Positions 7,035-63,736 of a DNA stretch of 64,000 nt are shown here, one piece after another (the first letter of the stretch is position 1; each line of letters starts with the position of its first letter). Made by a program: the position numbers and the translations under genes. The notes under the pieces were generated by a model. It ran no database searches. It saw only the letters and a program-made list of their open reading frames with translations, and had not been told where the DNA came from. The stretch covers positions 7,299-71,298 of the forward strand of contig CAIQIZ010000009.1 in assembly GCA_903872035.1 (NCBI GenBank), in the 5' to 3' direction. The stretch is from an uncultured bacterium. GTDB lineage: Bacteria; Patescibacteriota; Minisyncoccia; Phycocordibacterales; PALSA-1337.

Positions 7035-7060
7035 GTCGGAAAAAGATACGTAGTATCTTA
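7035..7060 (-). terminator. small terminator-like hairpin directly 3' of hairpin-element copy 1
   Basis: minus strand AGATAC-uac-GUAUCU followed by UUUUU; weak AT-rich stem. Confidence 0.3.
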
Positions 7061-7068
7061 TCAACAGG

Positions 7069-7214
7069 CTTGGCGGACAACATCTCCTCACCTCCTCGCA
7101 AGGTCGCCATTCCAAATTGCAGCCGTAGGCGCTTCCAAGGATTCAGCGCCTACGGGCAATTCGTTCATGGCTCAGATCACATTGCGAGTCGGCTCGAATA
7201 TGTTGTCCGCCAAG
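7069..7214 (-). repeat. extended-hairpin structured element, copy 1 (about 146 nt), begins 3 nt after stop of 7218-9515 gene
   Basis: 15-bp perfect closing stem CTTGGCGGACAACAT/ATGTTGTCCGCCAAG; interior about 90 percent identical to 55788-55937 in inverted orientation; internal 11-bp perfect hairpin CCGTAGGCGCT/AGCGCCTACGG. Confidence 0.7.
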
Positions 7215-7217
7215 CTA

Positions 7218-9515
7218 CTATTTGCCGCTCTGCACTTGCTTAATGGCCGCATCGATCTGATCTTTGAGCTCAGGATGCAACTTCTGGAGGGCTTGCAAAG
7301 TCTTGACCGCAGCTGATTTTTGACCAGACACATATTGGAGCTGGGCCAATTGTCCTTGCAGATTGATATCTGACGGGCTGCTCGAGGCCAAGTTGGTATA
7401 TATGGCGATAGCCTTGCTATATTCCTTCCTTGAAGAATAGACACTGGCCATCTGTTGCGAACCAAAGATGACTGGGTCATTACCAAAGAGCTTATGAGCT
7501 TCTGTTTCTTTGCCATCCAAAACCAAAGTGATAGCGTAGGCATTTTTGGCTTGCGCGTAATCCGGAGCAGACTCATAAGCTTGTTTCAGCAGCGCTTCGG
7601 CCTCCGCCGCTTTGCCAGAATTGATGTATGCATTCGCTAGTTCGAAATCCAACGTCTGTTTGGCCGGTGAGAGCTCATGACCCTTTTCCAAAAGTTCCAA
7701 AGCTGGAACATATTGACCGATACTGTTGTAGAAGGCTCCACCTAGAACATAAGCGCGGGCATCTTTGGGCGTAGCAGCCACCTGAGCTTGGATCTCTTTG
7801 CTGGCTAGAGTAAAGAATGCCTGCTTGGTCGGTCCGGCTACCTGCTGACTGGCAATGACGCTACCAGCACAAGACATGACTTGCTCGCGAATCTCCTGGT
7901 TAGCTAGGTAGACATTTACATTCAAAGCACTCTGAAAGGCCGCGGTGTCTAGGTTCTGACCGCCACAAGTCTGTAAAGCAGTGATGAGACGGCTATTGGC
8001 TTCGATCGGTCGGATATTGTAGAAGTAGACCGCACCGATCAAAAGAACGATCGCTATAGGTGCCACGATATATTCGACAGCATCCATTCTAGTCGGCTCT
8101 GTGCCGAACCAATTCAGAGATTGCCAGCGGGACGCACCAACATTCCCTACCGAAGGATTTGAACCGATGGGGACAGTCGCCCCGACCAAAGATTTTGTAT
8201 CTGCTTTTGGCAATGAATTCGCGAATCCCAGAGCCGCGAAGAACAAGACGTAGCTGGCCAAGTTATCGAAGACGAATACATTGTGAACAAAGTAGCCAGC
8301 GAGCAATCCTGTGAGGACGCTCTTTTCGAGGATGCCAAGCGAAGACTTCCAAACGGCCACAAGAAAAAGAACGTATAAGGCGAGATATGCCATCAATCCG
8401 ACGATTCCAGAATCGACTAACCAGTCGAGGAAGACGTTGTGAGCGCGGTCGAACCATTGCTCTTGGGCATACATGGCCGGATTGTAATCGGCATTGAATA
8501 TATAGTTGAAATTCTCTTGACCCCAACCGAACAATGGACGATGCATAGCGCCGTTTATCGCCATCGGCCAAATGAACTGGCGGGCCTGATTGGAAGCTTC
8601 ATACCAAGAAAGATTGGAGAACCTTCCGAGGATCGGGTTTGTTGTGATGGATGGATTGTGGCGATTGGCCCAAAATACCAAACCTAGGAGCACGATGAGA
8701 GCGATGATCCCTCCAGATATCCATCGTCTTTTCTTCGATTCTCCCTTGCCAAAAAATGCGTAGATGGCGCAAGCCAGCATGATACCGCCTATCAAGCCTA
8801 GGATGGTACCGCGAGTTTGAGTCTCCAAAATAATGAACCCGAAGAGCACAGCAAGAACTGCATAGACCCATTGCAAGGATCCGGCATACAGCATCTTCTT
8901 GGCGCGAGCCACGAAGAACATATAAGCCGCGATGAAACCGCTGAGCAACATGTATATGGCCATATAAGCAGAGTTACCAAGAGATGCATCCAAACGCGTC
9001 GCCCCTTGGTGAGTCGGAGTCCAACCGAGGAATTGAGCGATGCCGTATAGAGCGACGATGAAAGCGATGAGCAATGAGGCATTGAACCAACGATGCCATG
9101 ATCTTTGACCATTCTCCGTAGAGACTCCCCCGCTGCGGAGATCCATGGGACCGAAGAGGCTGGTAGTGACGATATAGAAAGCCCAGAGATGGATGATGAC
9201 GATCCAACCTTCCATGCGCTCGAAGTTAGACCAGAGGCTACGGAGCGGATTGACACCGAGAAGATCGGCGATGAGAGCGATCAGGGCAAATAGAGTCACT
9301 CCGATAGTAAGCGGTGAGATTCGTGGTCGGTATTTTGGTTCGATGAAAGCCAAAATTGCCCAGGCGGCAAAGGCTATCTCCACTAGGATCCTAAAATAAA
9401 AAGCTTTTCCAGTGATGAATGGGAAGAAAAATGAATTGGTGACGATCAGAGGAAAGATCGGGATCAGGAACAAAGCGGCAATGGCAACATACTGGGCGAT
9501 TTTTTTTATAGGCAT
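7218..9515 (-). CDS. O-antigen ligase/Wzy_C-family polytopic membrane protein with C-terminal TPR repeat domain
   Basis: about 12 predicted TM segments in N-terminal 450 aa; C-terminal about 250 aa with repeated TPR-like A-x-x-Y/L patterns (e.g. AKNAYAITLVLDGKETEAHKLF). Confidence 0.6.
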   Translation of the reverse strand: MPIKKIAQYVAIAALFLIPIFPLIVTNSFFFPFITGKAFYFRILVEIAFAAWAILAFIEPKYRPRISPLTIGVTLFALIALIADLLGVNPLRSLWSNFERMEGWIVIIHLWAFYIVTTSLFGPMDLRSGGVSTENGQRSWHRWFNASLLIAFIVALYGIAQFLGWTPTHQGATRLDASLGNSAYMAIYMLLSGFIAAYMFFVARAKKMLYAGSLQWVYAVLAVLFGFIILETQTRGTILGLIGGIMLACAIYAFFGKGESKKRRWISGGIIALIVLLGLVFWANRHNPSITTNPILGRFSNLSWYEASNQARQFIWPMAINGAMHRPLFGWGQENFNYIFNADYNPAMYAQEQWFDRAHNVFLDWLVDSGIVGLMAYLALYVLFLVAVWKSSLGILEKSVLTGLLAGYFVHNVFVFDNLASYVLFFAALGFANSLPKADTKSLVGATVPIGSNPSVGNVGASRWQSLNWFGTEPTRMDAVEYIVAPIAIVLLIGAVYFYNIRPIEANSRLITALQTCGGQNLDTAAFQSALNVNVYLANQEIREQVMSCAGSVIASQQVAGPTKQAFFTLASKEIQAQVAATPKDARAYVLGGAFYNSIGQYVPALELLEKGHELSPAKQTLDFELANAYINSGKAAEAEALLKQAYESAPDYAQAKNAYAITLVLDGKETEAHKLFGNDPVIFGSQQMASVYSSRKEYSKAIAIYTNLASSSPSDINLQGQLAQLQYVSGQKSAAVKTLQALQKLHPELKDQIDAAIKQVQSGK

Positions 9516-42335: not shown

Positions 42336-43493
42336 TCACTTGCTAAATATCGGCAGATCATTAAAAGTGATCTTGTTCGTTCGTTGTTTGTCCACAAATA
42401 CCTTGGCCCGTTTCAGCATAGCATCTCTTTCCTGACTTGGCGTCAAACAGAATTTCACTCGCTCACTGAAACCAGCTTGACTATCCCCATCGTGCCAGAT
42501 GCGGCCACGATCACCATCGTTTCCTATGGTTTCGACGATGCCATCAGCTTCGCTACCTATGACCGGCACATCCATATGCATAGCCTCCCAAAAGACCAGA
42601 CCTAGCGCTTCAGCTTTGGAAAGCAGCACGAATAAGTCTGCATCAGCATAATAGTTCCAAATCTCATCGCGGTGTATGAATCCAGGAAATATCAATCTAT
42701 CTTGGATTCCCAATGATTTGGCTTGTCGATTTAGCGGCTCCAGGAGACTTCCCCGGCCTAGGGCGATCAAGACATAACCCGAACCTAATCCCGCGAACAG
42801 CTCCAGTAACTTAGGATAATTCTTTTCTGATTCGAGACGTGCAACAGTCAAGATCACTTTCTGGTTTGGAGCGATCGCGTGTTTAGTTCGTATCACACCT
42901 TTCTTGGCCTTTGTAATAAATTCCAAGTCGCGGTCGATCGTATTCACATAAAAGACTGTTATATACTTTTCCGGAATGCCGATGTTCTTCAGATACGTCT
43001 TCATATTCTCATTTATCGTAAAGAAATGGTCGGCCAAGCGCCACCAGAGCTTTTCTGTCGCCCATGAATAGAATCCCTTGATCGCCCCAAATCTCCTTGT
43101 CTGCGAATACACTCGCGGCTGATTGCTTACACAAAGGACGATCTTGCCGCCAAAGATAAGTTTGGCCAACCAAAGAGCCGGCAACATACCAAAGTCATAA
43201 GTCATCCAGGCATCCGGTTTGAGCTTGAACCTCTTCACGGTGAATGGGACCGAAATCAGAGTCAGAAGATCGAGCACCGGCTTCAAAGAATAGAGCCTGG
43301 TCTTTTTGTGAATCGTTTTGAATCGACCTTCGAGACTCACATATGAGACGTTGGCCCAAGAAAAGAAGAAGAAATCATTCATGGACGGATTCAACTGGTC
43401 GCGTTCCAATTTATCTTTGAGCTCGACGAATGAGGTGCGAAAGATATCGCGCCAGTCATAATTGATCATGAATATGGAGAGTGTTCGGATCAT
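42336..43493 (-). CDS. GT4 (GT-B) glycosyltransferase
   Basis: LSKAEALGLVFWEAMHMDVPVIGSEADGIVE E-x7-E region. Confidence 0.65.
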   Translation of the reverse strand: MIRTLSIFMINYDWRDIFRTSFVELKDKLERDQLNPSMNDFFFFSWANVSYVSLEGRFKTIHKKTRLYSLKPVLDLLTLISVPFTVKRFKLKPDAWMTYDFGMLPALWLAKLIFGGKIVLCVSNQPRVYSQTRRFGAIKGFYSWATEKLWWRLADHFFTINENMKTYLKNIGIPEKYITVFYVNTIDRDLEFITKAKKGVIRTKHAIAPNQKVILTVARLESEKNYPKLLELFAGLGSGYVLIALGRGSLLEPLNRQAKSLGIQDRLIFPGFIHRDEIWNYYADADLFVLLSKAEALGLVFWEAMHMDVPVIGSEADGIVETIGNDGDRGRIWHDGDSQAGFSERVKFCLTPSQERDAMLKRAKVFVDKQRTNKITFNDLPIFSK

Positions 43494-44638
43494 TGAAGTT
43501 TTGCGGTCGGGGGGTCCTTCCTGGAGAGCGCCGAGGACGGGTAGCCAGCGATCAGCGCCCGCAGGCGGCGGAAGGAAGGACCCCCCGACCGCATCTCTTC
43601 GGCTAGTCGCGTGCCAAGCATCGATAAACTATGATTATCCTGGACGAATTTTCTAACAGAAAGCGCACGAGCACGTCGGTCATCAATAGATAATTCCAAT
43701 AGAGACCTTATCTTTGCTGTCAATTCACTAACATCGTCTTCTTTAAATAAATAAGCGGAATCTATCTTACCAATGAGATTCTTATTGCAAGAGAGAGCCA
43801 AAGCGCCACAGGCCATGGCTTCAAATATTGTCTTGTCGAACATTCCGCTCGGACTCAAGTTGACAAATATCTCATGAGCGGAAAAAATGGCGGGTAGCTC
43901 ACTGTTCGGCACGCCGGCTTTGAAGGTAACGCGCTCATCTATATGTAGATCGGCAGTTCGTCGCTCCAACGATTCAAAATACCCGACGTCTTGTGACGAC
44001 ACATTTCCTATGAATAAAACACTGAAATCTATTCCTTCCTTCTTCAATATGCCTAAGGCTTCGATCAGTTGATCCAGTTTCTTTGACGGTGAAATACGTC
44101 CGACGGACAGGATCGAGTGAGGTATCCGAACTGTTTCTGGTCGAAAATTGAATATTTCCGTATCGACCCCGACCGGCATGAAGACAGTATTCTTGAATTT
44201 GGCTGTGTATGAAAACTTTGAGGTACAAAAAACTTTGGTACAAAAGAAAGCTGCCATATCCGTCAGAAAACTCCCAGCGTAATGGTTACGCCACATGTAG
44301 ACTGGCTTGCCCATAATTTTCCAGAGCGGACCGCCCAAGATCGCGTACTCCTGATTCTGATGGACGAAGACCACATCATAATCCTTTCGAAGCGTTAAAG
44401 CGTATTTAAAAAATCTGTACACATATTTCACTCGTGACACACCCACCTCCTTGCCCAAGGAAAACACTTCAACATTCGCTGGCAAATCATGAGTACCCTC
44501 GTAAAGACAGACCACCTTAACCGTCTCGAAATGCTTGGCCAATTCCGTTATCCAAAGATGGAAGAAGCTAAGGACACTATCACGAAGATCTACTTTTTGA
44601 GCAAAGATAAGGAGTTTCATATTATTTGGAGGTGGCAC
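43490..44638 (-). CDS. GT4 (GT-B) glycosyltransferase (C-terminal about 35 aa encoded by the palindrome)
   Basis: GT-B N- and C-domains; ORF reads through 43502-43593 palindrome giving tail SGGPSFRRLRALIAGYPSS; alternative ATG at 44620. Confidence 0.55.
   Translation of the reverse strand: MPPPNNMKLLIFAQKVDLRDSVLSFFHLWITELAKHFETVKVVCLYEGTHDLPANVEVFSLGKEVGVSRVKYVYRFFKYALTLRKDYDVVFVHQNQEYAILGGPLWKIMGKPVYMWRNHYAGSFLTDMAAFFCTKVFCTSKFSYTAKFKNTVFMPVGVDTEIFNFRPETVRIPHSILSVGRISPSKKLDQLIEALGILKKEGIDFSVLFIGNVSSQDVGYFESLERRTADLHIDERVTFKAGVPNSELPAIFSAHEIFVNLSPSGMFDKTIFEAMACGALALSCNKNLIGKIDSAYLFKEDDVSELTAKIRSLLELSIDDRRARALSVRKFVQDNHSLSMLGTRLAEEMRSGGPSFRRLRALIAGYPSSALSRKDPPTAKLQ
43502..43593. repeat. GC-rich perfect 20-bp inverted repeat with about 52-nt spacer, inside 3' end of GT4 ORF
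   Basis: TGCGGTCGGGGGGTCCTTCC ... GGAAGGACCCCCCGACCGCA; both strands remain open through it. Confidence 0.7.
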
Positions 44639-53548: not shown

Positions 53549-53578
53549 GGCGCCACATTAGCACAATTTCAAGGCGGC

Positions 53579-53630
53579 GGAAATGTTTTCGTTTGAGCGC
53601 TGTGGGCCAGCGGCAAACGAAAACATTTCC
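53579..53630. promoter_or_regulatory. 17-bp perfect inverted repeat (18-nt spacer) in rsmI / ATP-grasp divergent intergenic region
   Basis: GGAAATGTTTTCGTTTG ... CAAACGAAAACATTTCC; spacer itself palindromic (CGCTG..CAGCG). Confidence 0.6.
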
Positions 53631-53691
53631 AGAGCCTGAAAATCCATACATACCATTGACCAATAATCGTTATATCTATAGACTGTATTTT

Positions 53692-54967: not shown

Positions 54968-55789
54968 TTGCTGATTTTGCGTTACAATAGAACATCACTT
55001 ATGCCCACAGCCACACTCGGAATCAAAGCCCTTTCGATCATCGATCAATACGTCCACTTCAAGTTCGGATCGGCTGTCTGCTCTGTTCCCTATTTCAATA
55101 ACAAGACCGTCGGAGCCAGGGCGGCTCTGCGGGCGACCATAGGCAAAGGCAATCCGAAAGATATCCTGGACGAGGTTCAATCGATCGCCGTAAAGTCTCA
55201 CTTTGATCCAAAAACATTGACTGATGAATCTTTGAAGAAATTTCTAGTAGATCACAATCTTGGCATCGAGTGTTCCGGTTTCGCCTATTACATTTTGAAC
55301 GCTGAATCGGAAGAGCGTGGCAAAGGCGCTTTAGATAAACATCTCCACTTCACCAAAGCTGGAGGCTTTTTCGGAATGGTCCGCACCAGATTACGTCCTG
55401 TTGAGAATTGCGCTGTCGCCACTTTCGCCGACGATAAAAATAGTTCAGCCATTTCACTTAATGACACGCAACCAGGAGACATCATTACCATGCTAAACGA
55501 TGGTAATGAATCTGAGCACGACCATATTTTGATTGTGACCGAAATTGAATTTGAAAATTCCCAATCAAGTTCCAAGCCGACTAAAATCCATTACGCCCAC
55601 GCTGTCGCATATCCAGAAGACGGCCTTCTTGGAACCGGCGTGAAGCAGGGGGTCATTGAAATCAGCGCTGATTCAAATTCAATCACTGATGGTCTCTGGT
55701 CAGAAAATGGATCAACTACAAAAGCTGAACGAATCTTTAATCGCGCAAAGAAATCAAAAACAGAGATCAGAAGATTGAGGTGGTTTTGA
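54968..55789 (+). CDS. hypothetical protein, possible papain-like Cys/His hydrolase
   Basis: candidate catalytic C in IECSGFAYYIL and H in HDHILIVTE about 90 aa apart; weak. Confidence 0.3.
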   Translation: MLILRYNRTSLMPTATLGIKALSIIDQYVHFKFGSAVCSVPYFNNKTVGARAALRATIGKGNPKDILDEVQSIAVKSHFDPKTLTDESLKKFLVDHNLGIECSGFAYYILNAESEERGKGALDKHLHFTKAGGFFGMVRTRLRPVENCAVATFADDKNSSAISLNDTQPGDIITMLNDGNESEHDHILIVTEIEFENSQSSSKPTKIHYAHAVAYPEDGLLGTGVKQGVIEISADSNSITDGLWSENGSTTKAERIFNRAKKSKTEIRRLRWF

Positions 55790-55937
55790 GCTCGGTGGAA
55801 ATGTCTACGAGCCGATTCGCAATGCGATTTGAGCCATGAACAAATTGCCCGTATGAGCTGAATCCCTGGAAGCGCATACGGCTGCAATTTGGAATGGCGA
55901 CCTTGCGAGGAGACGAGGAGACATTTCCATCGAGCTC
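55788..55937 (+). repeat. extended-hairpin structured element, copy 2 (about 150 nt), starts within stop codon of 54968-55789 and lies 42 nt upstream of mraY
   Basis: 18-bp closing stem GAGCTCGGTGGAAATGTC/GACATTTCCATCGAGCTC (one G-U); interior matches reverse complement of 7069-7214. Confidence 0.7.
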
Positions 55938-55979
55938 ATACAAAACACGACTTGAATCAACACCTTTCCGCGTGGTATT

Positions 55980-57134: not shown

Positions 57135-57817
57135 TGAATTACCTTTCCTGGAATCAACACGCTATCACCGACTTCTCGCCTAAAGCGGTGAATGAAATGT
57201 ATGAGAAGGGATACGTTTTCACACGGCTCGGTCGTGGTGTGATGCAGCAGACCAGATCGGTTCGTGTTGATCTGAGCAAGTTTGCGCTTTCAAGCGAAAA
57301 TAGACGTATCTTGAAGAAAGTCCCAAACGTCTCACTTCAGTCAACTAAAGTGCCTATCGTCGACTATAGCTACCCCCTCGGCAAACTAGCCAAGGATTTC
57401 TATGACACAAAGTTCGGTCCAGGAATCATGAGTGCACAAAAGATCAAGGAGATGCTCACCGACCCTTCCAAGAGCAATTTTAATTGTTTACTAAAATTCG
57501 CCCCCGCCGACAGATCAACAACTCATGGTTACACCATCTGTTATGAGAATGAATCATTACTGCACTACTCTTATCCATTTTACGATTTAAAAGAATCTTC
57601 CAAAGATATGGGACTTGGCATGATGATAAGAGCCATCGAATGGGCTAAAGCCGAAGGTAAGAAATTCGTATACCTCGGTTCGCTCCAACGGCCATCCGAC
57701 ACTTACAAGTTGCAATTCGAAGGCCTCGAATGGTTCGATGGTGGCCCAAACGGAACTGGCGCCTGGAAGACCGATTTTGAAGAAGCGAAGAAAATCCTCT
57801 CCAAGCCGACTTTATGA
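57134..57817 (+). CDS. putative aminoacyl-tRNA--protein transferase (Ate1/Bpt-like C-terminal domain) or Fem-like GNAT
   Basis: start at ATG overlapping mraY stop (TAATG); C-terminal KFVYLGS...TYKLQFEGLEWF resembles ATE_C YLGYW..YK..F.P.E motif; track ORF 56747-57817 overlaps mraY. Confidence 0.35.
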   Translation: MNYLSWNQHAITDFSPKAVNEMYEKGYVFTRLGRGVMQQTRSVRVDLSKFALSSENRRILKKVPNVSLQSTKVPIVDYSYPLGKLAKDFYDTKFGPGIMSAQKIKEMLTDPSKSNFNCLLKFAPADRSTTHGYTICYENESLLHYSYPFYDLKESSKDMGLGMMIRAIEWAKAEGKKFVYLGSLQRPSDTYKLQFEGLEWFDGGPNGTGAWKTDFEEAKKILSKPTL

Positions 57818-57827
57818 ACTTTCTAAC
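57809..57827. repeat. left arm of 19-bp perfect inverted repeat bracketing the Mur ligase gene
   Basis: CTTTATGAACTTTCTAACT; reverse complement present at 59286-59304. Confidence 0.65.
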
Positions 57828-57845
57828 TTGTAACTTTCAAACTTT

Positions 57846-59291
57846 ATGAACTTACCTGAACGAATCCATGTAATCGGCATCTGCGGCGTAGCCATGAGCG
57901 CGCTGACTGTCGCCTTCCACAAGCGTGGCGTCAAAGTAACTGGCAGCGACAAAGGATTCTTTCCGCCGATCTCGACCGAGCTTGAGAAACAAGGTGTCCC
58001 CTTTTACGCCGGTTGGCACCCAGAGAAAATGATCGAAGGTGGCAAGCCTGATCTCATCATCGTCGGCACTGCTTCCGGTACGCAAAATCCCGAGACCGCT
58101 TACGCTAAAGAAAACAATATCCCCTGCTTTTCATACCCCGAGATCATCGGTAAATATTTCGTCAAAGAGCATTCCGTTGTGTGTGCCGGGACTTGGGGAA
58201 AGACATCTTCTTCGGCACTTCTTTCCTTCATTCTCGAACAGGCCGGTTTTGATCCATCATACATGTTCGGTGGAGTATCTCTTTCCCACGGATCAGCCGC
58301 CAAGCTGACCGATTCATCTTGGAGCGTTTTTGAGGGCGACGAATACAAGAGTTCGCCCAGCGATTCTCGAGCGAAATTTTTCCATTACAAGCCTACGGAA
58401 TTGTTATTGACTGCCGTCTCCTGGGACCACGCCGATCTGTATCCGACTGAGGCTGAGTATTTCGATGCTTTCAAAAAGTTGCTAGTTGAGATGCCCTCTA
58501 CGGGATCGGTCGTCGCATGCGCAGATAACGAGGGGGTCATGAAGATCATCGATTCGTTTAAGGGCAAAGTGGTGCTTTACGGTCGCGCGCGACCAACTAC
58601 AGAGTTCAGACCTATACAAGGTGCAGAGGTTAAACCTCTGCAGTACACCTACAAGAATGTCTCTCAATCGAATCAGGGATTGAAATTGACCATAATCCAT
58701 GACGGACAAGAATTTCAAATCGAGTCGCCCATGCTCGGCTTATTCCAAGTCGAGAACATTACCGGCTGTTTTGCCATGGCTAGTGAATTGGGAGTCGAGC
58801 CAAAGAAGATCATCGAGGCAATTTCTAAATTCAAAGGCCTAAAAAGAAGGATGGAAAAGAGGCTCGACGGTGGCGGCATCACCGTCATAGACGACATTGC
58901 TCATTCACCGGAAAAAGCTTCGGCTGTCTTGAATACTTTGCGATCAATCTACGATGGCAAGATAATCGCAGTCTTCGAACCTAATAGCGGCGGACGAGAA
59001 CGTGGTGCAGCCACAAAATACGACAATGCTTTCAGGGACGCAGATACAGTGATCATCCCAAGGCTAACAAAACTTAAAATCGCAGAAAATGAATCAGACC
59101 CACCCATTGAAGGTGCCGAATTGGCAACAATCATCAGCGACGCGCACCCTGATTCACTCTATATGGAAGACGACGCTGAACTGATAAAGTTCTTGGTTTC
59201 AGATACAAAAAAAGGCGATGTCATCGCTTTCCTCGGGTCGCATGGATTCAGAGGGATGATTGAGGAAACAGTTAGAAAGTTAACAAGTTAG
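57846..59291 (+). CDS. murC: Mur ligase, UDP-N-acetylmuramate--L-alanine ligase (MurC) or murein-peptide ligase (Mpl)
   Basis: IHVIGICGVAMSALT...VTGSD N-terminal MurC/Mpl domain (GICG is Mpl-like), GTWGKTSSSALL P-loop. Confidence 0.6.
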   Translation: MNLPERIHVIGICGVAMSALTVAFHKRGVKVTGSDKGFFPPISTELEKQGVPFYAGWHPEKMIEGGKPDLIIVGTASGTQNPETAYAKENNIPCFSYPEIIGKYFVKEHSVVCAGTWGKTSSSALLSFILEQAGFDPSYMFGGVSLSHGSAAKLTDSSWSVFEGDEYKSSPSDSRAKFFHYKPTELLLTAVSWDHADLYPTEAEYFDAFKKLLVEMPSTGSVVACADNEGVMKIIDSFKGKVVLYGRARPTTEFRPIQGAEVKPLQYTYKNVSQSNQGLKLTIIHDGQEFQIESPMLGLFQVENITGCFAMASELGVEPKKIIEAISKFKGLKRRMEKRLDGGGITVIDDIAHSPEKASAVLNTLRSIYDGKIIAVFEPNSGGRERGAATKYDNAFRDADTVIIPRLTKLKIAENESDPPIEGAELATIISDAHPDSLYMEDDAELIKFLVSDTKKGDVIAFLGSHGFRGMIEETVRKLTS

Positions 59292-59304
59292 AAAGTTCAT
59301 AAAG
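59286..59304. repeat. right arm of 19-bp perfect inverted repeat (covers Mur ligase stop codon)
   Basis: AGTTAGAAAGTTCATAAAG = reverse complement of 57809-57827; additional 12-mer copies at 59270, 59317, 57841, 59327. Confidence 0.65.
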
Positions 59305-59349
59305 TCCACAAGACTCAACTTTCTAACTTTATGAACTTGTAACTTTTCA

Positions 59350-59544
59350 CTATTTCCCTTCGTCCACAATAACAGTCTTGATATTCCCGTTGGCTATTTC
59401 CTTGACCAAAAGAGTCATGCCACAATGGTTGCATTCGATGACCATCCCTGGCGCTATATTCGGATACCTTCCAAGATCTATGGTATTTTTGCACTCCGGA
59501 CAAACACAGAGTGAATTTGATGATTCTGTTCTTTCGCTGATCAT
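59350..59544 (-). CDS. small zinc-ribbon protein (LysW-like)
   Basis: CPEC...(17 aa)...CNHCG two CxxC pairs with LysW-like spacing, ID-LG and V-E-I-xCxxCG context. Confidence 0.4.
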   Translation of the reverse strand: MISERTESSNSLCVCPECKNTIDLGRYPNIAPGMVIECNHCGMTLLVKEIANGNIKTVIVDEGK

Positions 59545-59580
59545 CTTTTAATACTACCTAAAATAAGTTAGGATGACAAC

Positions 59581-60501
59581 ATGTCACTTCAAATGATTAC
59601 CCCCCAAGAACCATTCCCAGCCCTTGCTAAGGCTGTTGGTTTGACGGATATCTATCTAAAACGCGAGGACTTGCATACTTACGGCTCTCATAAAGGCCGG
59701 TCAATTCCAGTCATGATCGACCATTACTTGAAAGAAGGATCGAAGAATTTTGCCATATCTTCGTCAGGAAATGCCGCTTTAGCTGCTGCTTTGTACGTGA
59801 AGGAATTGAACGGCTGCCCGTCAAAAGAATTGCCTGCTTCAGATTCGCCGCTTCATTTAGATATTTTCGTCGGCATCCATTTGGCACCAAATAAGTTAGC
59901 CAAGCTGAAGAAACTTGAGGATGAACATATCCGAGTCCTTACCAAAGAACGTCCTCTACAAGCCTTAATGGCGGCTGCCAATGAAGGTTCTACAAGCCTA
60001 CGTCAATCAACCGACGATATCGCTTTGATCGGCTATAAGAGCTTGGCCGAAGAATTGGCGACGATACCCAAGCTAGCAGCAATATTCATCGGCACATCTT
60101 CAGGCACAACCGCCCAAGCTTTGGCGCAATATTTCATGGATGCAAAGGTGAGCAAAATGAGGACGCCTGTCCAGGTTCACGTAGTACAAACTTCTTCATG
60201 TCACCCACTATCTGATGCTTTTGAAACGTATGATGGCGAAGATGAACAATCCATCGCCAATGCCATCGTGGATAAAACTGTCCATCGTAAAGCCGCCCTA
60301 GTACCTCTAATAAAAAAGACTGGCGGATACGGATGGTTCGCGACCAACGACAAGATTCGTGCCGCCCAAGCTTTGGTCAGGGAGCATGCCGGGTTGGAGA
60401 TCTCAACGAATAGTGCCCTCTCGGTAGTCGGTGCTATGGAATCCGCCTATCGCACTTGGACCATTGATGGAGCGGCGGTGTGTGTGGTTTGCGGCGACTA
60501 A
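59581..60501 (+). CDS. pyridoxal-phosphate-dependent enzyme, fold type II (PALP family)
   Basis: candidate PLP-lysine in GSHKGRS; SSGNAALAAA glycine-rich phosphate-binding loop. Confidence 0.5.
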   Translation: MSLQMITPQEPFPALAKAVGLTDIYLKREDLHTYGSHKGRSIPVMIDHYLKEGSKNFAISSSGNAALAAALYVKELNGCPSKELPASDSPLHLDIFVGIHLAPNKLAKLKKLEDEHIRVLTKERPLQALMAAANEGSTSLRQSTDDIALIGYKSLAEELATIPKLAAIFIGTSSGTTAQALAQYFMDAKVSKMRTPVQVHVVQTSSCHPLSDAFETYDGEDEQSIANAIVDKTVHRKAALVPLIKKTGGYGWFATNDKIRAAQALVREHAGLEISTNSALSVVGAMESAYRTWTIDGAAVCVVCGD

Positions 60502-60539
60502 GGTTCAGGAGCAAGGAGGAATCAGGAAGGAGCAAGATA

Positions 60540-60902
60540 TTACAGACGTTTTCTGGTTGAACGAATCAGACCAAGAAGCAGACCTTGAATATTTTGCATT
60601 TCAGTAAAGATCGTTTGGCAAGTCTCCTTCGAAAGATACTTCAAATCTGAAGCTATGAACATGTGACTTTGAGATTCGATAAGAGAGCCATACGCCTGAT
60701 TGTAAAAATTCAACTTTTCTTTTATGGATATTCGTCCAAAGCCTTCTGCGATATTTGCGGCAATAGAAACAACAGCTCTACGCATTTGAGAAGTCAACCC
60801 GAATAATTCTTCTTTGGGAAATCTTTTTGTGCATTCATAAATCAACAAGGTTGTTTTCCTTGCTTTTTTCCAGACATCAAGATCGTAGAAATTCTTAATC
60901 AT
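60540..60902 (-). CDS. four-helix-bundle protein (23S rRNA intervening-sequence protein family)
   Basis: DLDVWKKA, IAANIAEGFGR, YNQAYGSLIE hallmarks. Confidence 0.7.
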   Translation of the reverse strand: MIKNFYDLDVWKKARKTTLLIYECTKRFPKEELFGLTSQMRRAVVSIAANIAEGFGRISIKEKLNFYNQAYGSLIESQSHMFIASDLKYLSKETCQTIFTEMQNIQGLLLGLIRSTRKRL

Positions 60903-60956
60903 ATTATTCCTCCTTCCTCCTTCCTCCTTCCTCCTTCCTCCTTCCTCCTTCCTCCT
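60903..60956 (-). repeat. (AAGGAGG)x7 tandem heptamer directly 5' of four-helix-bundle start codon
   Basis: plus strand CCTCCTT repeated about 7 times ending 60956; reads as seven consecutive Shine-Dalgarno cores on the coding (minus) strand. Confidence 0.8.
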
Positions 60957-60960
60957 TGCC

Positions 60961-62298
60961 CTAAAGCCCCCTGACCGCCTTCACGAACCTCTCGCTTCTT
61001 TCTTTGCGCGAGGCATCTATTCCGGCCGCTTCAAAACCTGGACTAAATACCACCTTATCGCCTTTCTTGGCACGCTCAAAAGCCAACTGGGTAGCTTCTT
61101 CTATCGAACGAGCCGAAATGATTTCTAGGTCTTCGATCTGATTAAGCACTTGCCGCTCACGCAGAGTTCCACTGCCGGGCACCAAGACAACCGCCCGGAC
61201 ATATTGTGGTAATAGCGAATACAAAGAACGGTAATCTGACATGGTCTGAGCGCCGCCGAATATGAGCACCGTGCTTTTTTCTGATCCAGCAACTGATTGC
61301 AATGCGACCAGAGTCGACGACGAGTTCAACGAGGCCGCATCATTGTAGAAATCGACATTCTTGAATTTCTTGACCAGTTCCAGACGTCCATGCAGAGGCT
61401 TCCAGCTTTGGAGGATACGCCTAGATACTTCCTCGTCGACTTTGAACAGTTGCGCCGCTTGCAGGGCTAATGCCGCATTATCGCGATCATGCCGACGTGT
61501 TCCCGTATGAGAGATATTCTTCAATTCCCAATCAGTCGGAATGATAGTTGGCTTGGTCCGCAACATCTTGCCTCGCGGCAATTCCTTGTACCTTCGAGTG
61601 GCGTCAATGACCTCATCAGAAGCGATGATGAAATTGTTAAAGGTTTGATAAGCCAGGATCTCGAAGGGCGACTCGTCATACGAACCTTTGGCAGGGATAG
61701 TAGTGAATACAGCTACTTGCGGACTGATCCGGAGCGCATAGAGCTCACGCATGATCGGATCGACCACGCGCATGAGGACGAGGTCTCCGCTTTTGACTTT
61801 CTTCAAATGGGCCAGGATGCCCTCATCCGATTCTGGGTCGATGACAAAGAAGCCTTGGCCTTTCTCGGCTTTGCAGGCCGCCCGGAGCATGGGTTCCAAC
61901 ATGGAGATGACAGTAGTCTTGCCGCATTCGCCCATGACTCCGACCACGGTGACTGGCGGCGCTCGCCTAAAGAAGAGCGTCTCTGGATATTCGATGGGAA
62001 CTTTTTTTTCTTTAGCACCCTTCAAAAAGCTCGATTCGCGAGGATATTCATGCGAGAGAACTATGAGATCCATGTCCAGAAGGTCGTCTTCTGGAATCGA
62101 GCCGCAGACATAATTGGCCAAACCGACATTGCGGAGATTGACTAGATGGTTCTTGAGACGAGCCTCGCTCTTCAAATCATATATACCGACCAAGGCCCCA
62201 GCTTTGATGAGGAATGAGACATCCTCCACCATCTCGCCGTTTGGGCCAAGGCCAATGACCGCAATGCGCTTGCCTTTGAAATAGTCGCGAGAAGTCAT
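60961..62298 (-). CDS. murD: UDP-N-acetylmuramoylalanine--D-glutamate ligase
   Basis: GKRIAVIGLGPNG N-terminus, GECGKTT P-loop, FYNDAASLNSSSTLVAL, SPGFEAAGI C-terminus. Confidence 0.7.
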   Translation of the reverse strand: MTSRDYFKGKRIAVIGLGPNGEMVEDVSFLIKAGALVGIYDLKSEARLKNHLVNLRNVGLANYVCGSIPEDDLLDMDLIVLSHEYPRESSFLKGAKEKKVPIEYPETLFFRRAPPVTVVGVMGECGKTTVISMLEPMLRAACKAEKGQGFFVIDPESDEGILAHLKKVKSGDLVLMRVVDPIMRELYALRISPQVAVFTTIPAKGSYDESPFEILAYQTFNNFIIASDEVIDATRRYKELPRGKMLRTKPTIIPTDWELKNISHTGTRRHDRDNAALALQAAQLFKVDEEVSRRILQSWKPLHGRLELVKKFKNVDFYNDAASLNSSSTLVALQSVAGSEKSTVLIFGGAQTMSDYRSLYSLLPQYVRAVVLVPGSGTLRERQVLNQIEDLEIISARSIEEATQLAFERAKKGDKVVFSPGFEAAGIDASRKERSERFVKAVRGL

Positions 62299-62312
62299 AG
62301 CGTCAGTATAGA

Positions 62313-62675
62313 TTAATGTCTCTTTGTCATCAATCTCTTGACCTTGATCATTTCCTGAAGCATAGCCTGAAGCGTGACGGAATCGCCGGCTGAAGTTTCC
62401 GACTCGACAACGAAGTAGGACAGCTTCTTCATGAATATGCCATACAAGTCATGGAAGTATTGCTCCAAGACTTTCTCCTGATGCATTTCATCTTCTGCAG
62501 AAGCTTCATCTTTCGATCCGTTTTTCTGACCAGCTTCTGGACCTTTACCTTTTGAAGAAGGGCCGTCCAAGAAGCGGAGCAATTCCATGGGACGTTTGAG
62601 TCCCTCATACGATAAGGTGGCATCGTTCAAAACACCATCCAAAGATGGCGAAACGAGCCTGTAATCTCGGATCAT
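62313..62675 (-). CDS. hypothetical protein
   Basis: ORF track; acidic/Lys-rich centre. Confidence 0.3.
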   Translation of the reverse strand: MIRDYRLVSPSLDGVLNDATLSYEGLKRPMELLRFLDGPSSKGKGPEAGQKNGSKDEASAEDEMHQEKVLEQYFHDLYGIFMKKLSYFVVESETSAGDSVTLQAMLQEMIKVKRLMTKRH

Positions 62676-62763
62676 TTTAGTTGGGAGGAAGGAGTAAGGA
62701 GGAAGAAGGAAGGAGAATCACAGTGTGGTTCCTCCTTTCTTCTCGCTCCGTCCTCCTTGCTCC
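62676..62763 (-). promoter_or_regulatory. purine-rich/pyrimidine-rich imperfect hairpin (SD-rich arm vs anti-SD arm) in 5' leader of 62313-62675
   Basis: plus strand GGAGGAAGGAGTAAGGAGGAAGAAGGAAGGAG ... CCTCCTTTCTTCTCGCTCCGTCCTCCTTGCTCCTT. Confidence 0.5.
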
Positions 62764-63534
62764 TTATGAATAATTAACTGGTACGCTTACGAACCCATCT
62801 TTTGTGATGATGACATGATCTAACAAGTGGATGCCCAGGATCTTCCCCGCCTGGACAAGCCGTTCGGTAATTCTAACATCTTCGTCGCTAGCCGCAAGGT
62901 TCCCTGAAGGGTGATTGTGGGCCAAAATAACAGCTACTGCGCTGGATTCCAATCCGACTCGAAAGACTTCCTTTGGTTCGACGATATTGGAATCGACGCT
63001 GCCTATGGAGATCACTTCGTTTCTGATGACTCTATTTTGGCTATTCAAGAACAATGCGCGCAAATATTCTTTTGGCAGATTGCGCATATCGGTCAGGTGT
63101 TCGAAAACGTCTTTGGCATTCCTGATGACAGTGAATCCGTAGTCGTGTCGATCATATATACGCCTTCCCATCTCGCCGACAGCCACGATCTGGCAAGCTT
63201 TGACTATCGGGATGTTCGACTCCTCGGAAAGTCGAGTAGCATCGCGCTCGAAGAGGACGCTTTTTTCACCATAGTTATGGATGACGCGCTCGGCCATCTC
63301 CAAAACATCTTCCTTGACGGTACCGGTAGTAAATACGAGTGCCAGCAATTCCTGTAGAGTCAGAGCCTCTGGACCTGAAGCTAAAAGCTTTTCTCGAGGC
63401 TTCTTTTCCGACGGGAGGTCGCGAATAAGCGACGGATATTCTCTAGTCGCCTGATTGGCCGCGCCAGCCGCATTTTTCGGCTTGTGGCTCAAAATGAAGG
63501 GTTCGCTATGAATGATGTAATTTGTGGTTGGCAT
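62764..63534 (-). CDS. radC: RadC-family JAB/MPN-domain protein
   Basis: HNHPSGNLAASDED JAMM-like motif; N-terminal helix-hairpin-helix region LQELLALVF. Confidence 0.75.
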   Translation of the reverse strand: MPTTNYIIHSEPFILSHKPKNAAGAANQATREYPSLIRDLPSEKKPREKLLASGPEALTLQELLALVFTTGTVKEDVLEMAERVIHNYGEKSVLFERDATRLSEESNIPIVKACQIVAVGEMGRRIYDRHDYGFTVIRNAKDVFEHLTDMRNLPKEYLRALFLNSQNRVIRNEVISIGSVDSNIVEPKEVFRVGLESSAVAVILAHNHPSGNLAASDEDVRITERLVQAGKILGIHLLDHVIITKDGFVSVPVNYS

Positions 63535-63563
63535 GGGGTAATTGTAGCATAAGGAAGCGGGTC

Positions 63564-63736
63564 AATTACAAGCCTGCTTAGGAAAGTGCTCGAGCGATTC
63601 TCGGACTGTCTGAGCGCGTTGAAATTTCTTGGTAAAATGTGAACCACTTTGACCTCGTGAACATTTTACCTAGAAATTTCACGAGCGAGTTTCCGAGAAG
63701 AGAGAGAGGACTTTCCTAAGCAGGCTTCAATTACAA
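63564..63736. repeat. about 175-bp nested imperfect palindrome upstream of radC
   Basis: outer arms CAATTACAAGCCTGCTTAGGAAAGT / ACTTTCCTAAGCAGGCTTCAATTACAA; inner GGTAAAATGT/ACATTTTACC and two GAAATTTC. Confidence 0.6.

What the first reader, a model, noticed from the sequence alone, without database searches (positions are those of the whole stretch)
60501..60960. Seven tandem Shine-Dalgarno heptamers (AAGGAGG)x7 upstream of the four-helix-bundle gene, with a complementary purine-rich arm on the other side of the gene
Seen directly: on the coding (minus) strand the start codon of 60540-60902 is preceded by GGGCAAGGAGG(AAGGAGG)x6 AATAAT-ATG. On the other side of the gene (60505-60535, plus strand) lies AGGAGCAAGGAGGAATCAGGAAGGAGCAAG, which is complementary to the CCTCCTT run. 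The 363-nt ORF is thus enclosed by an imperfect long stem in the transcript. Established knowledge: four-helix-bundle proteins of this family are classically found inside 23S rRNA intervening sequences that are excised through a long flanking stem by RNase III. Here the same cassette-in-a-stem logic appears in a non-rRNA context between murD and a PLP enzyme. Heptamer microsatellites are also potential slipped-strand (phase-variable) sites, although changing copy number upstream of the ATG would alter leader length rather than frame.
Basis: partly seen in the sequence, partly recalled or inferred. Interest (0 to 1): 0.6.

Follow-up and report, generated by a model that had tools for sequence, protein, structure and literature searches.

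The report
IVS-like four-helix-bundle cassette with heptamer arms
The seven AAGGAGG repeats are one end of a small foreign gene cassette bracketed by two complementary arrays of 7-base repeats, built like the elements that interrupt 23S rRNA genes but sitting between two ordinary protein genes; nearly all relatives of this gene that I examined share that design.

Summary
The minus strand at 60957-60909 is seven perfect AAGGAGG units, followed by AATAAT and the ATG of a 120-aa PF05635/TIGR02436 gene. A pyrimidine arm at 60536-60505 pairs with the array (duplex -55.6 kcal/mol against -34.7 +/- 4.2 for shuffled arms).

It is not a special Shine-Dalgarno device. Only 6 of 55 genes in the window carry an SD-like motif, which equals the background rate. 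It is one case of a shared design: in 63 of 69 non-redundant homologous loci the gene has period-7 repeat arrays on one or both sides. The downstream unit is usually the reverse complement of the upstream unit, and the unit sequence differs between protein clades. Cyanobacterial plasmids and a true Azospirillum 23S rRNA intervening sequence show the same design. Published Coxiella work describes heptamers, strain-level copy variation and RNase III cutting in such an element.

A syntenic relative has 12 nt where the window has this 459-nt, low-GC cassette, so it is probably an insertion. Two hairpins without a gene, built from similar short tandem repeats, lie nearby. Copy number is 7 in every assembly that spans the array.

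Best reading: a mobile, IVS-like cassette outside rRNA. RNase III processing and the way it moves are inferred, not shown.

The parts
60909..60957 (-). 5' arm: seven perfect tandem AAGGAGG heptamers. It starts 3 nt after the murD stop codon. The last unit ends 6 nt before the ATG.
   Evidence: (TRF score 102, 100% matches).
60540..60902 (-). [quoted passage not shown] It is intact and has the conserved Q39/R42/S46/E53-G-F/R57 core. GC is 36.4% against 47.5% for the window.
   Evidence: PF05635 E=1.8e-35; TIGR02436 117 bits; DGR-Avd model 26.5 bits, below its 80-bit cut-off; PDB 2GSC E=1.3e-28; invariant columns; GC in the lowest 0.16% of 363-nt windows.
60505..60536 (-). 3' arm: degenerate pyrimidine heptamers (CTTGCTC CTTCCTG ATTCCTC CTTGCTC CT) complementary to the 5' array. 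It starts 3 nt after the ORF stop codon and ends about 4 nt from the stop codon of the convergent PALP gene.
   Evidence: I4-I6, I8, I11; duplex -55.6 kcal/mol.
60502..60960 (.). The whole cassette: it fills the entire murD / PALP intergenic space. The syntenic relative L005 has 12 nt here.
62684..62765 (-). 'Empty' hairpin of the same unit class. The purine arm 62765..62729 (AAGGAGC AAGGAGG ACGGAGC ...) overlaps the RadC stop codon. The loop is 62728..62718. The pyrimidine arm 62717..62684 ends 8 nt before the ATG of a 120-aa ORF. It shares a 14-nt run, AGGAGCAAGGAGGA, with the complement of the cassette's 3' arm. MFE is -41.1 kcal/mol. The relative has 27 nt here against 88 in the window.
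   Evidence: (I12, I22).
59267..59347 (+). Second empty tandem-repeat hairpin with a different 7-8-nt unit (AGTTAGAA / AACTTTCT). It lies at the 3' end of the murC-like gene. The relative has 5 nt here against 58 in the window.
   Evidence: (I10).
57817..57850 (+). Solo array AACTTTCT AACTTGT AACTTTCA AACTTTATGAACTT that runs into the murC-like start codon. It nearly repeats the pyrimidine arm of the 59267-59347 hairpin.

Best explanation
The feature is a horizontally acquired, IVS-type cassette. It consists of a PF05635/TIGR02436 four-helix-bundle gene bracketed by two inverted arrays of heptamer repeats: purine-rich and C-poor 5' of the gene on the coding strand, and the complement 3' of it. 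It is inserted in the very short spacer between the convergent murD and PALP genes of a Paceibacterota-like (CPR) bacterium.

The arrays belong to the cassette and travel with the gene. AAGGAGG is simply the unit used by this protein clade, and the perfect 7-copy run is a recent slippage expansion of one unit.

No promoter-like or terminator-like site was found between murD and the gene. The cassette is therefore most likely transcribed as the tail of the radC-orf120-murD transcript. In that RNA the arms form a stem spanning about 40 nt of each arm, about 34 base pairs. By analogy with the rRNA versions of the same element, this stem would be an RNase III substrate that cuts the cassette RNA away from the host message.

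Shown here: the anatomy, the family-wide architecture, the co-variation of the two arms, absence from the same site in a relative, and the compositional foreignness. Inferred: RNase III processing, co-transcription, how the cassette moves, and what the protein does.
For: (1) Anatomy and statistics in the window.

(2) Family-wide design. In 69 non-redundant homologous loci, the 5' flank against the reverse-complemented 3' flank scores a median of 30, against 15 for shuffles, and 39 loci exceed every shuffle. Lag 7 is the best period in 53 of 73 upstream and 52 of 73 downstream flanks, against 11 of 101 control stretches taken about 650 nt from the gene. Period-7 arrays lie within 100 nt on both sides in 46 loci, on one side in 17, and on neither in 6. 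Array coverage is 23.8% near the gene against 1.0% elsewhere. In 17 of 26 loci with clean units, the downstream unit is the reverse complement of the upstream unit (1 mismatch or fewer), against 4% in direct orientation and 7% for permuted loci.

(3) Polarity is conserved: 5' arms are 8% C and 3' arms are 8% G.

(4) Unit type follows protein clade. The window's closest relatives (62-69% identity) sit at a different site (SLT_2 gene and RNase J, convergent) yet also have purine-only arms. L107 contains (TTCCTCC)x3, the same unit as the window.

(5) The same design occurs in other phyla and in rRNA. About 12 of 15 cyanobacterial plasmid copies have it. The Azospirillum copy lies inside an LSU rRNA gene (520 bits).

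(6) Insertion. Six flanking proteins are syntenic with L005 at 63-69% identity, but the intergenic spacer is 459 nt against 12 nt. The ORF GC is 36.4% against 47.5 +/- 3.3%.

(7) Literature. The Coxiella IVS has tandem GACAGAT heptamers before the S23p ORF, 2 or 3 copies depending on strain, a 28-bp terminal stem, and an RNase III cut at the first repeat (PMC4990558). Genes of this family are also found wedged into cas operons (PMC3936711) and in CPR rRNA insertions (10.1101/2024.02.27.582315).

(8) No promoter-like or terminator-like site lies between murD and the gene.
Against: Mismatches between the arms show no G.U over A.C bias (47 against 57). So nothing shows selection for pairing at the RNA level on the sense strand, and complementarity could be maintained at the DNA level.

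In the closest relatives a perfect TATAAT sits 6-7 nt before the ATG, inside the arms. Their own mRNA would therefore lack the 5' arm and could not form the stem. The window copy has lost that element.

No target-site duplication or precise boundaries could be defined. The only empty site is in a genome about 64% identical at the protein level, so deletion in that lineage is not strictly excluded. No transposase or recombinase lies in or beside the cassette. Whether the organism has RNase III is unknown: a motif scan found none in these 64 kb. A minority of family members have arrays in direct rather than inverted orientation (L092, L106).
Confidence: 0.6

Rival explanations
1. Host hairpin first, gene second. 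Hairpins built from heptamer repeats are a native intergenic feature of these genomes, for example RNA-stabilising or terminator-like elements. The four-helix-bundle gene homes into the loop of an existing hairpin, much as IVSs sit at the tips of rRNA helices. On this reading the arms are host sequence, not part of the cassette.
For: Empty hairpins of the same kind lie 1.7 kb and 1.2 kb away in the window. Many paired period-7 arrays without a gene occur elsewhere in the CPR loci, often with units unlike the nearby cassette's. CPR rRNA insertions sit at the tips or bases of stem-loops.
Against: Unit class follows the protein clade across different insertion sites: the window at murD/PALP and its relatives at SLT/RNase J are all purine-only. 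The GAATNAT clade sits in many different contexts. In the relative L005 all three hairpin sites are short spacers with no hairpin.
Confidence: 0.2
2. Translation device. The seven AAGGAGG units act as a multi-copy Shine-Dalgarno or ribosome standby platform for the gene. The CCUCCU-rich 3' arm acts as a cis anti-SD that masks it, giving tunable translation.
For: The last unit ends 6 nt before the ATG. In the best duplex the two or three units nearest the ATG stay unpaired, and the stem can slide between registers. The window copy has lost the TATAAT that its relatives carry just before the ATG, so it may depend on read-through transcription plus an SD.
Against: Only 6 of 55 genes in the window have any SD-like tetramer at -18..-7, equal to the 10% background. 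Most family members use units that are not SD-like. The empty hairpin at 62684-62765 has the same unit class with no ORF inside it.
Confidence: 0.12
3. Phase-variable contingency locus. Slipped-strand changes in heptamer copy number switch or tune expression of the gene.
For: Seven perfect copies imply recent slippage. Copy number of the equivalent heptamers differs (2 or 3) among Coxiella strains. Related cassettes carry different numbers of the same unit. One k-mer assembly (Logan) breaks inside the array.
Against: The 7-copy array was read directly in two independent assemblies besides the window. Three more samples show the same 58-nt murD-to-gene spacing. The array lies outside the ORF, so it cannot shift the frame. 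The contig break is expected for a 49-nt repeat with k=31.
Confidence: 0.08

Closest known systems
23S rRNA intervening sequences that encode an S23p/PF05635 protein (Coxiella burnetii and Leptospira in the literature; Azospirillum lipoferum AZO_p2 copy, L094, examined here)
   Same: Same protein family, at 38% identity to the Azospirillum copy. The ORF sits in the loop of a long stem made by terminal inverted repeats. Tandem heptamers lie directly upstream of the ORF. The 5' side is purine-rich and SD-like (AGAAGA in Coxiella).
   Different: The window copy is not in rRNA: Rfam finds no rRNA in the 64 kb. It lies between the 3' ends of two convergent protein genes. The array is longer and perfect (7 copies). 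Excision by RNase III is demonstrated only for the rRNA copies.
Intergenic heptamer repeat arrays: the cyanobacterial STRR sequences (from my memory of Mazel et al. 1990 and Vioque 1997, not read here) and the TAACTGA direct repeats of Beggiatoaceae, Cyanobacteria and Bacteroidetes (MacGregor 2015, PMC4679880)
   Same: Tandem 7-nt units lie in intergenic DNA, often ending a few nucleotides before a start codon. They occur in some of the phyla (Cyanobacteria) in which I found these genes. One CPR locus uses TAACTGA-like units (L019).
   Different: Those reports describe direct repeats and propose S1, Csp or CsrA as binders. The term search inside that paper found no mention of this protein family, and none of the library searches found a paper linking such repeats to it. 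Here the arrays come as an inverted pair around that gene.
Avd, the accessory protein of diversity-generating retroelements
   Same: Homologous four-helix-bundle fold: weak hits to PF22296 (E=6e-4) and to NF033474 (26.5 bits).
   Different: The score is far below the Avd equivalog cut-off of 80 bits. None of the six proteins scanned in the surrounding ~5.3 kb (57846-63534 region) had a reverse-transcriptase match. Template/variable repeats were not specifically searched for.
Foldback-type and MITE-like elements (from my memory, not checked in the literature here)
   Same: The terminal inverted repeats are themselves made of short tandem units, with arms of unequal and variable length. Gene-less hairpin derivatives lie in the same genome.
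   Different: No transposase, no defined target-site duplication, and no demonstrated transposition.

Membership tests
PF05635 / TIGR02436 four-helix-bundle ('23S rRNA IVS') protein | Sequence match above the curated cut-offs | tested here: met
   PF05635 121.8 bits (cut-off 33.8). TIGR02436 117 bits (cut-off 24). PDB 2GSC E=1.3e-28.
23S rRNA intervening sequence (IVS) element | ORF enclosed by terminal inverted repeats that form a long stem | tested here: met
23S rRNA intervening sequence (IVS) element | Tandem heptamers immediately upstream of the ORF (as in Coxiella) | tested here: met
   Also seen in the Azospirillum rRNA copy.
23S rRNA intervening sequence (IVS) element | Located inside a 23S rRNA helix (helix 25 or 45) | tested here: not met
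   No rRNA in the window. The flanks are murD and a PALP enzyme gene.
23S rRNA intervening sequence (IVS) element | Excised from the precursor RNA by RNase III | not testable with these tools
   Needs RNA end mapping. No RNase III signature motif was found in these 64 kb, which says little about the whole genome.
DGR accessory protein Avd | Score above the Avd equivalog cut-off, plus an adjacent reverse transcriptase and template/variable repeats | tested here: not met
   NF033474 26.5 bits, below 80. The six neighbouring proteins scanned are Mur ligases, PALP, a Zn-ribbon protein and one with no match; RadC is named from precomputed Pfam hits. Template/variable repeats were not searched for.
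Phase-variable simple-sequence-repeat locus | Repeat-number polymorphism between strains or reads | tested here: not met
   7 copies, or identical 58-nt spacing, in all assemblies that span the array. Read-level data are not available.
Shine-Dalgarno translation signal | The organism's genes generally carry SD motifs at -18..-7 | tested here: not met
   6 of 55 ORFs against a 10% background. The 16S 3' end is not in the window.
Transposon or MITE with terminal inverted repeats | Inverted termini, target-site duplication, and multiple copies or an empty site | tested here: inconclusive
   Inverted termini are present. There is an empty site in a relative and a gene-less hairpin with a shared 14-nt run. 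No target-site duplication could be resolved, and no transposase is present.
Intrinsic terminator | GC-rich hairpin followed by a U-run | tested here: not met
   No terminator-like site at the arms. The 3' arm is followed by GAACCUUAGUCG.

The most novel reading that the evidence does not exclude
PF05635 four-helix-bundle genes together with inverted heptamer arrays form a widespread, so far unrecognised class of foldback-type mobile cassettes. Members occur in CPR bacteria, Cyanobacteria, Proteobacteria and Gemmatimonadota. On this reading the classical 23S rRNA intervening sequences are only the copies that landed in rRNA. The long-unexplained intergenic heptamer arrays (STRR-type) are their gene-less derivatives or trans-products. 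The pentameric protein recognises the 7-nt units and promotes their spread or processing.
Probability: 0.3. Interest if true: 0.85.

Novelty: new variant of a known kind. Interest (0 to 1): 0.68.

Why it matters
Two puzzles have been open since about 1990: where 23S rRNA intervening sequences come from, and why some bacteria carry tandem heptamer repeats in intergenic DNA. PF05635 proteins are also abundant and have no known function.

This window, together with 69 non-redundant homologous CPR loci, 15 cyanobacterial plasmid loci and two from other phyla, shows the gene and the heptamer arrays occurring together as one unit. They do so inside and outside rRNA, with the two arms co-varying. That links the two puzzles.

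It also suggests direct tests. Does the pentamer bind 7-nt repeat arrays? Does RNase III cut the stem out of mRNAs? Do the gene-less hairpins depend on the gene?

For annotation, it means that heptamer arrays next to these genes should not be read as Shine-Dalgarno repeats or as phase-variation tracts by default.

Tried and rejected
- **Rfam and tRNA scans of the window:** nothing found, so there is no rRNA or tRNA context.
- **Whole-transcript fold z-score:** only -2.0, because shuffling keeps the purine and pyrimidine runs. The arm-arm duplex test replaced it; a first, heavier version of that script timed out.
- **G.U versus A.C mismatch test for RNA-level selection:** no bias (47 against 57).
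- **Cross-locus arm scoring among the closest relatives:** blurred by low complexity. For example, the window's 5' arm scores 76 against the L107 3' arm.
- **Promoter and terminator scan:** nothing at the cassette.
- **A -10-like motif before the ATG:** clear only in the window's own clade and weak family-wide (15 of 76 against 20 of 228 controls).
- **PADLOC defence models:** no hit.
- **Other four-helix-bundle genes in the window:** none by tblastn.
- **RNase III signature motif in the window:** none.
- **Target-site duplication:** cannot be resolved at 64% divergence from the only empty site.
- **Break of the Logan contig inside the array:** treated as a k-mer assembly effect, not as polymorphism.
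- **miRNA-family hits on the Gemmatirosa hairpin:** below their gathering scores and dismissed as spurious.
- **Literature searches for a described link between this protein family and heptamer arrays outside rRNA:** found only the Coxiella IVS paper.
Full report
**1. The observation**

On the minus strand the murD-like ORF (60961-62298) ends in TAG. It is followed by GGC, then seven perfect AAGGAGG units (60957..60909), then AATAAT, then the ATG (60902..60900) of a 120-aa ORF (60540-60902). TRF scores this as the strongest tandem array in the window: period 7, 7.3 copies, 100% matches, score 102. A two-unit pattern with up to 2 mismatches occurs 14 times against 0.5 expected.

Three nucleotides after the ORF's stop codon the minus strand reads CTTGCTCCTTCCTGATTCCTCCTTGCTCCT (60536..60507). 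This is 86-88% complementary to the array in five registers. The arm-arm duplex is -55.6 kcal/mol, against -34.7 +/- 4.2 for shuffled 3' arms. None of 600 random window segments reached it. The arms pair in both the MFE and the centroid fold of the whole 471-nt RNA.

The ORF is a confident PF05635/TIGR02436 four-helix-bundle protein. Its nearest solved structure is the Xanthomonas pentamer 2GSC.

**2. The window holds more of the same**

Two further hairpins built from short tandem repeats lie within 3 kb.

- At 62684-62765 (minus strand) a 37-nt purine arm (AAGGAGC AAGGAGG ACGGAGC ...) begins inside the RadC stop codon. It pairs across an 11-nt loop with a 34-nt pyrimidine arm that ends 8 nt before the next ORF's ATG (-41.1 kcal/mol). 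It uses the same unit class as the cassette and has no gene in the loop.
- At 59267-59347 (plus strand) a hairpin with a different 7-8-nt unit (AGTTAGAA) sits at the end of the murC-like gene. A solo copy of its pyrimidine arm runs into that gene's start codon at 57817-57850.
- No other AGGAGG-type purine or pyrimidine tract exists in the 64 kb.

**3. It is probably an insertion, and it is compositionally foreign**

The nearest reference genome is a Candidatus Paceibacterota MAG, L005. It keeps the order RadC, orf120, MurD, PALP, Zn-ribbon, MurC-like, at 63-69% protein identity. Its spacers are much shorter than the window's:

| Site | Window | L005 |
|---|---|---|
| Cassette (murD / PALP) | 459 nt | 12 nt |
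| Hairpin at 62684-62765 | 88 nt | 27 nt |
| Hairpin at 59267-59347 | 58 nt | 5 nt |

The ORF's GC content is 36.4%, against 47.5 +/- 3.3% for the window. That places it in the lowest 0.16% of 363-nt windows.

**4. Relatives show a family-wide architecture**

I fetched 80 metagenomic loci encoding 45-55% identical homologues, plus the loci of the closest homologues. Nearly every gene is preceded by tandem repeats of about 7 nt and followed by their complement.

- **Flank complementarity.** Among 69 non-redundant loci, the score of the 5' flank against the reverse-complemented 3' flank has a median of 30, against 15 for shuffles. 39 loci exceed every shuffle.
- **Period.** Lag 7 is the best period in 53 of 73 upstream and 52 of 73 downstream flanks, against 11 of 101 control stretches about 650 nt away.
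- **Arrays near the gene.** Period-7 arrays lie within 100 nt on both sides in 46 loci, on one side in 17 and on neither in 6. Array coverage is 23.8% there against 1.0% elsewhere.
- **Orientation.** In 17 of 26 loci with clean consensus units, the downstream unit is the reverse complement of the upstream unit. The figure is 4% for direct orientation and 7% for permuted loci.
- **Polarity.** 5' arms are 8% C and 3' arms are 8% G.

The unit differs between protein clades: GTAAT/GTAAC types, GATTCAN, GAATNAT, AGTATNN, GCAAGCA, and purine-only for the window's clade. Within a locus the two arms match each other.

The window's five closest relatives (62-69% identity) all sit at another site, between an SLT_2-domain gene and RNase J. 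They also have purine-only arms. One of them contains (TTCCTCC)x3, the window's own unit. The arms therefore travel with the gene.

**5. Beyond CPR bacteria, and inside rRNA**

A tblastn search of plasmids found 26 records, mostly cyanobacterial. About 12 of the 15 cyanobacterial copies examined have period-7 or period-8 arrays on one or both flanks. Examples:

- Nostoc: AGTAGGG / CCCTACT, and AGGAGTC
- Calothrix: GGGTGTA / TACACCC
- Geminocystis: GGGAAAA

Several copies sit inside operons: between the two ribonucleotide reductase subunit genes, between cas6 and cas4, and between cmr2 and cmr3. The Azospirillum copy lies inside an LSU rRNA gene (RF02541, 520 bits), so it is a true IVS. It has the same inverted, period-7 arms. 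A minority of copies (Pseudanabaena, Gemmatirosa) have arrays in direct orientation.

**6. Literature**

- Warrier et al. 2016 (PMC4990558) describe the Coxiella 23S IVS. It has an S23p ORF, a 28-bp terminal-repeat stem and an AGAAGA motif followed by three tandem GACAGAT heptamers before the ATG. Copy number is 2 or 3 depending on the strain. RNase III cuts at the start of the first repeat. The paper also cites older proposals that IVSs are remnants of mobile elements.
- Genes of this family have been noted inside cas loci (PMC3936711).
- They have also been noted in CPR rRNA insertions (10.1101/2024.02.27.582315).
- MacGregor 2015 (PMC4679880) describes unexplained TAACTGA heptamer arrays before start codons and makes no link to this family.
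- Seven full-text searches found no paper describing the heptamer-arm architecture for the non-rRNA genes. The library covers open-access papers only.

**7. Why the Shine-Dalgarno reading is weak**

Only 6 of 55 window ORFs have GGAG, GAGG or AGGA at -18..-7. That equals the 10% background, so this organism does not generally use SD-led initiation. Most clades use units that are not SD-like.

The window's closest relatives carry a perfect TATAAT 6-7 nt before the ATG. This looks like a promoter for a leaderless mRNA, and it lies inside the arms. The window copy has lost it. Its array abuts the ATG, with the last unit at an ideal SD distance. A secondary role for that last unit in translation cannot be excluded, but it is not what defines the feature.

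**8. Phase variation**

The array has 7 copies in two independent assemblies read directly. Three more samples show the same 58-nt murD-to-gene spacing. One k-mer assembly stops inside the array, as expected for a 49-nt repeat. The perfection of the run and the differing copy numbers in related cassettes show that slippage happens over evolutionary time. No polymorphism is seen at this locus at the assembly level.

**9. Mechanism**

No promoter-like or terminator-like site separates murD from the gene. The most likely transcript therefore runs from upstream through the cassette, and the arms would form a stem spanning about 40 nt of each arm.

By analogy with the rRNA copies I infer RNase III cleavage that frees the host message from the insert. 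This is not shown here. Arm mismatches show no G.U over A.C bias (47 against 57), so the pairing may be maintained at the DNA level, as terminal inverted repeats. How the cassette moves and what the pentamer does remain unknown. The gene-less hairpins could be deletion derivatives, copies mobilised in trans, or pre-existing host hairpins; the last is the main rival explanation.

**10. Verdict**

The element is an IVS-like cassette outside rRNA, which makes it a new variant of a known kind. The family-wide link between PF05635 genes and inverted heptamer arrays appears to be undescribed and can be tested experimentally.

Noticed in passing
window 7060-7220 and 55780-55945: Two copies, in opposite orientation, of one ~160-nt highly structured intergenic element. 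They share the core GGTCGCCATTCCAAATTGCAGCCGTAkGCGCTTCCArGGATTCAGC..., and each folds at about -78 kcal/mol. There is no Rfam match at gathering thresholds. It could be a dispersed repeat, a MITE or an unknown ncRNA.
   Followed up: partly
window 63560-63735, 53560-53650, 43490-43605: Three further long intergenic hairpins that are not built from tandem repeats. One is nested (-82 kcal/mol), one has a 17-bp AT-rich stem (-41) and one has a 21-bp G/C-rich stem (-73). Their function is unknown.
   Followed up: no
window, start regions of 55 ORFs: The organism's genes essentially lack Shine-Dalgarno motifs (6 of 55, equal to background). This implies SD-independent initiation, although start-codon calls were not curated.
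   Followed up: partly
window 57817-57850 with 59267-59297: The murC-like ORF is itself bracketed by a pyrimidine-type array at its start codon and the complementary purine-type array in its last codons. The latter can also pair locally with 59317-59347. This gives two alternative pairings of unknown significance.
   Followed up: no
L007 4001-4880; L107 1501-2615: In two relatives the inverted arms enclose a second gene besides the four-helix-bundle gene: a NUDIX hydrolase in L007 and a 199-aa ORF in L107. L107 also has an extra purine array between the two genes, so cassettes can carry extra cargo.
   Followed up: partly
L007, L107, L110, L111 (6-7 nt upstream of the ATG): A perfect TATAAT ends 6-7 nt before the start codon of the closest homologues. 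This suggests a cassette-borne promoter that gives a leaderless mRNA. It is absent from the window copy.
   Followed up: partly
L092 (Pseudanabaena pPg_01), L106 (Gemmatirosa plasmid): Some family members have long heptamer arrays in direct rather than inverted orientation on the two sides of the gene: (GCTAAAA)x13 with (GCCAAAA)n, and CTCCTGC on both sides. The simple stem model does not explain these.
   Followed up: no
window 60909-60957: The array is a 49-bp homopurine-homopyrimidine tract. Its unit reversed is a rotation of itself, so it is a perfect mirror repeat. From general knowledge, such a tract could form triplex (H-) DNA. This was not tested.
   Followed up: no
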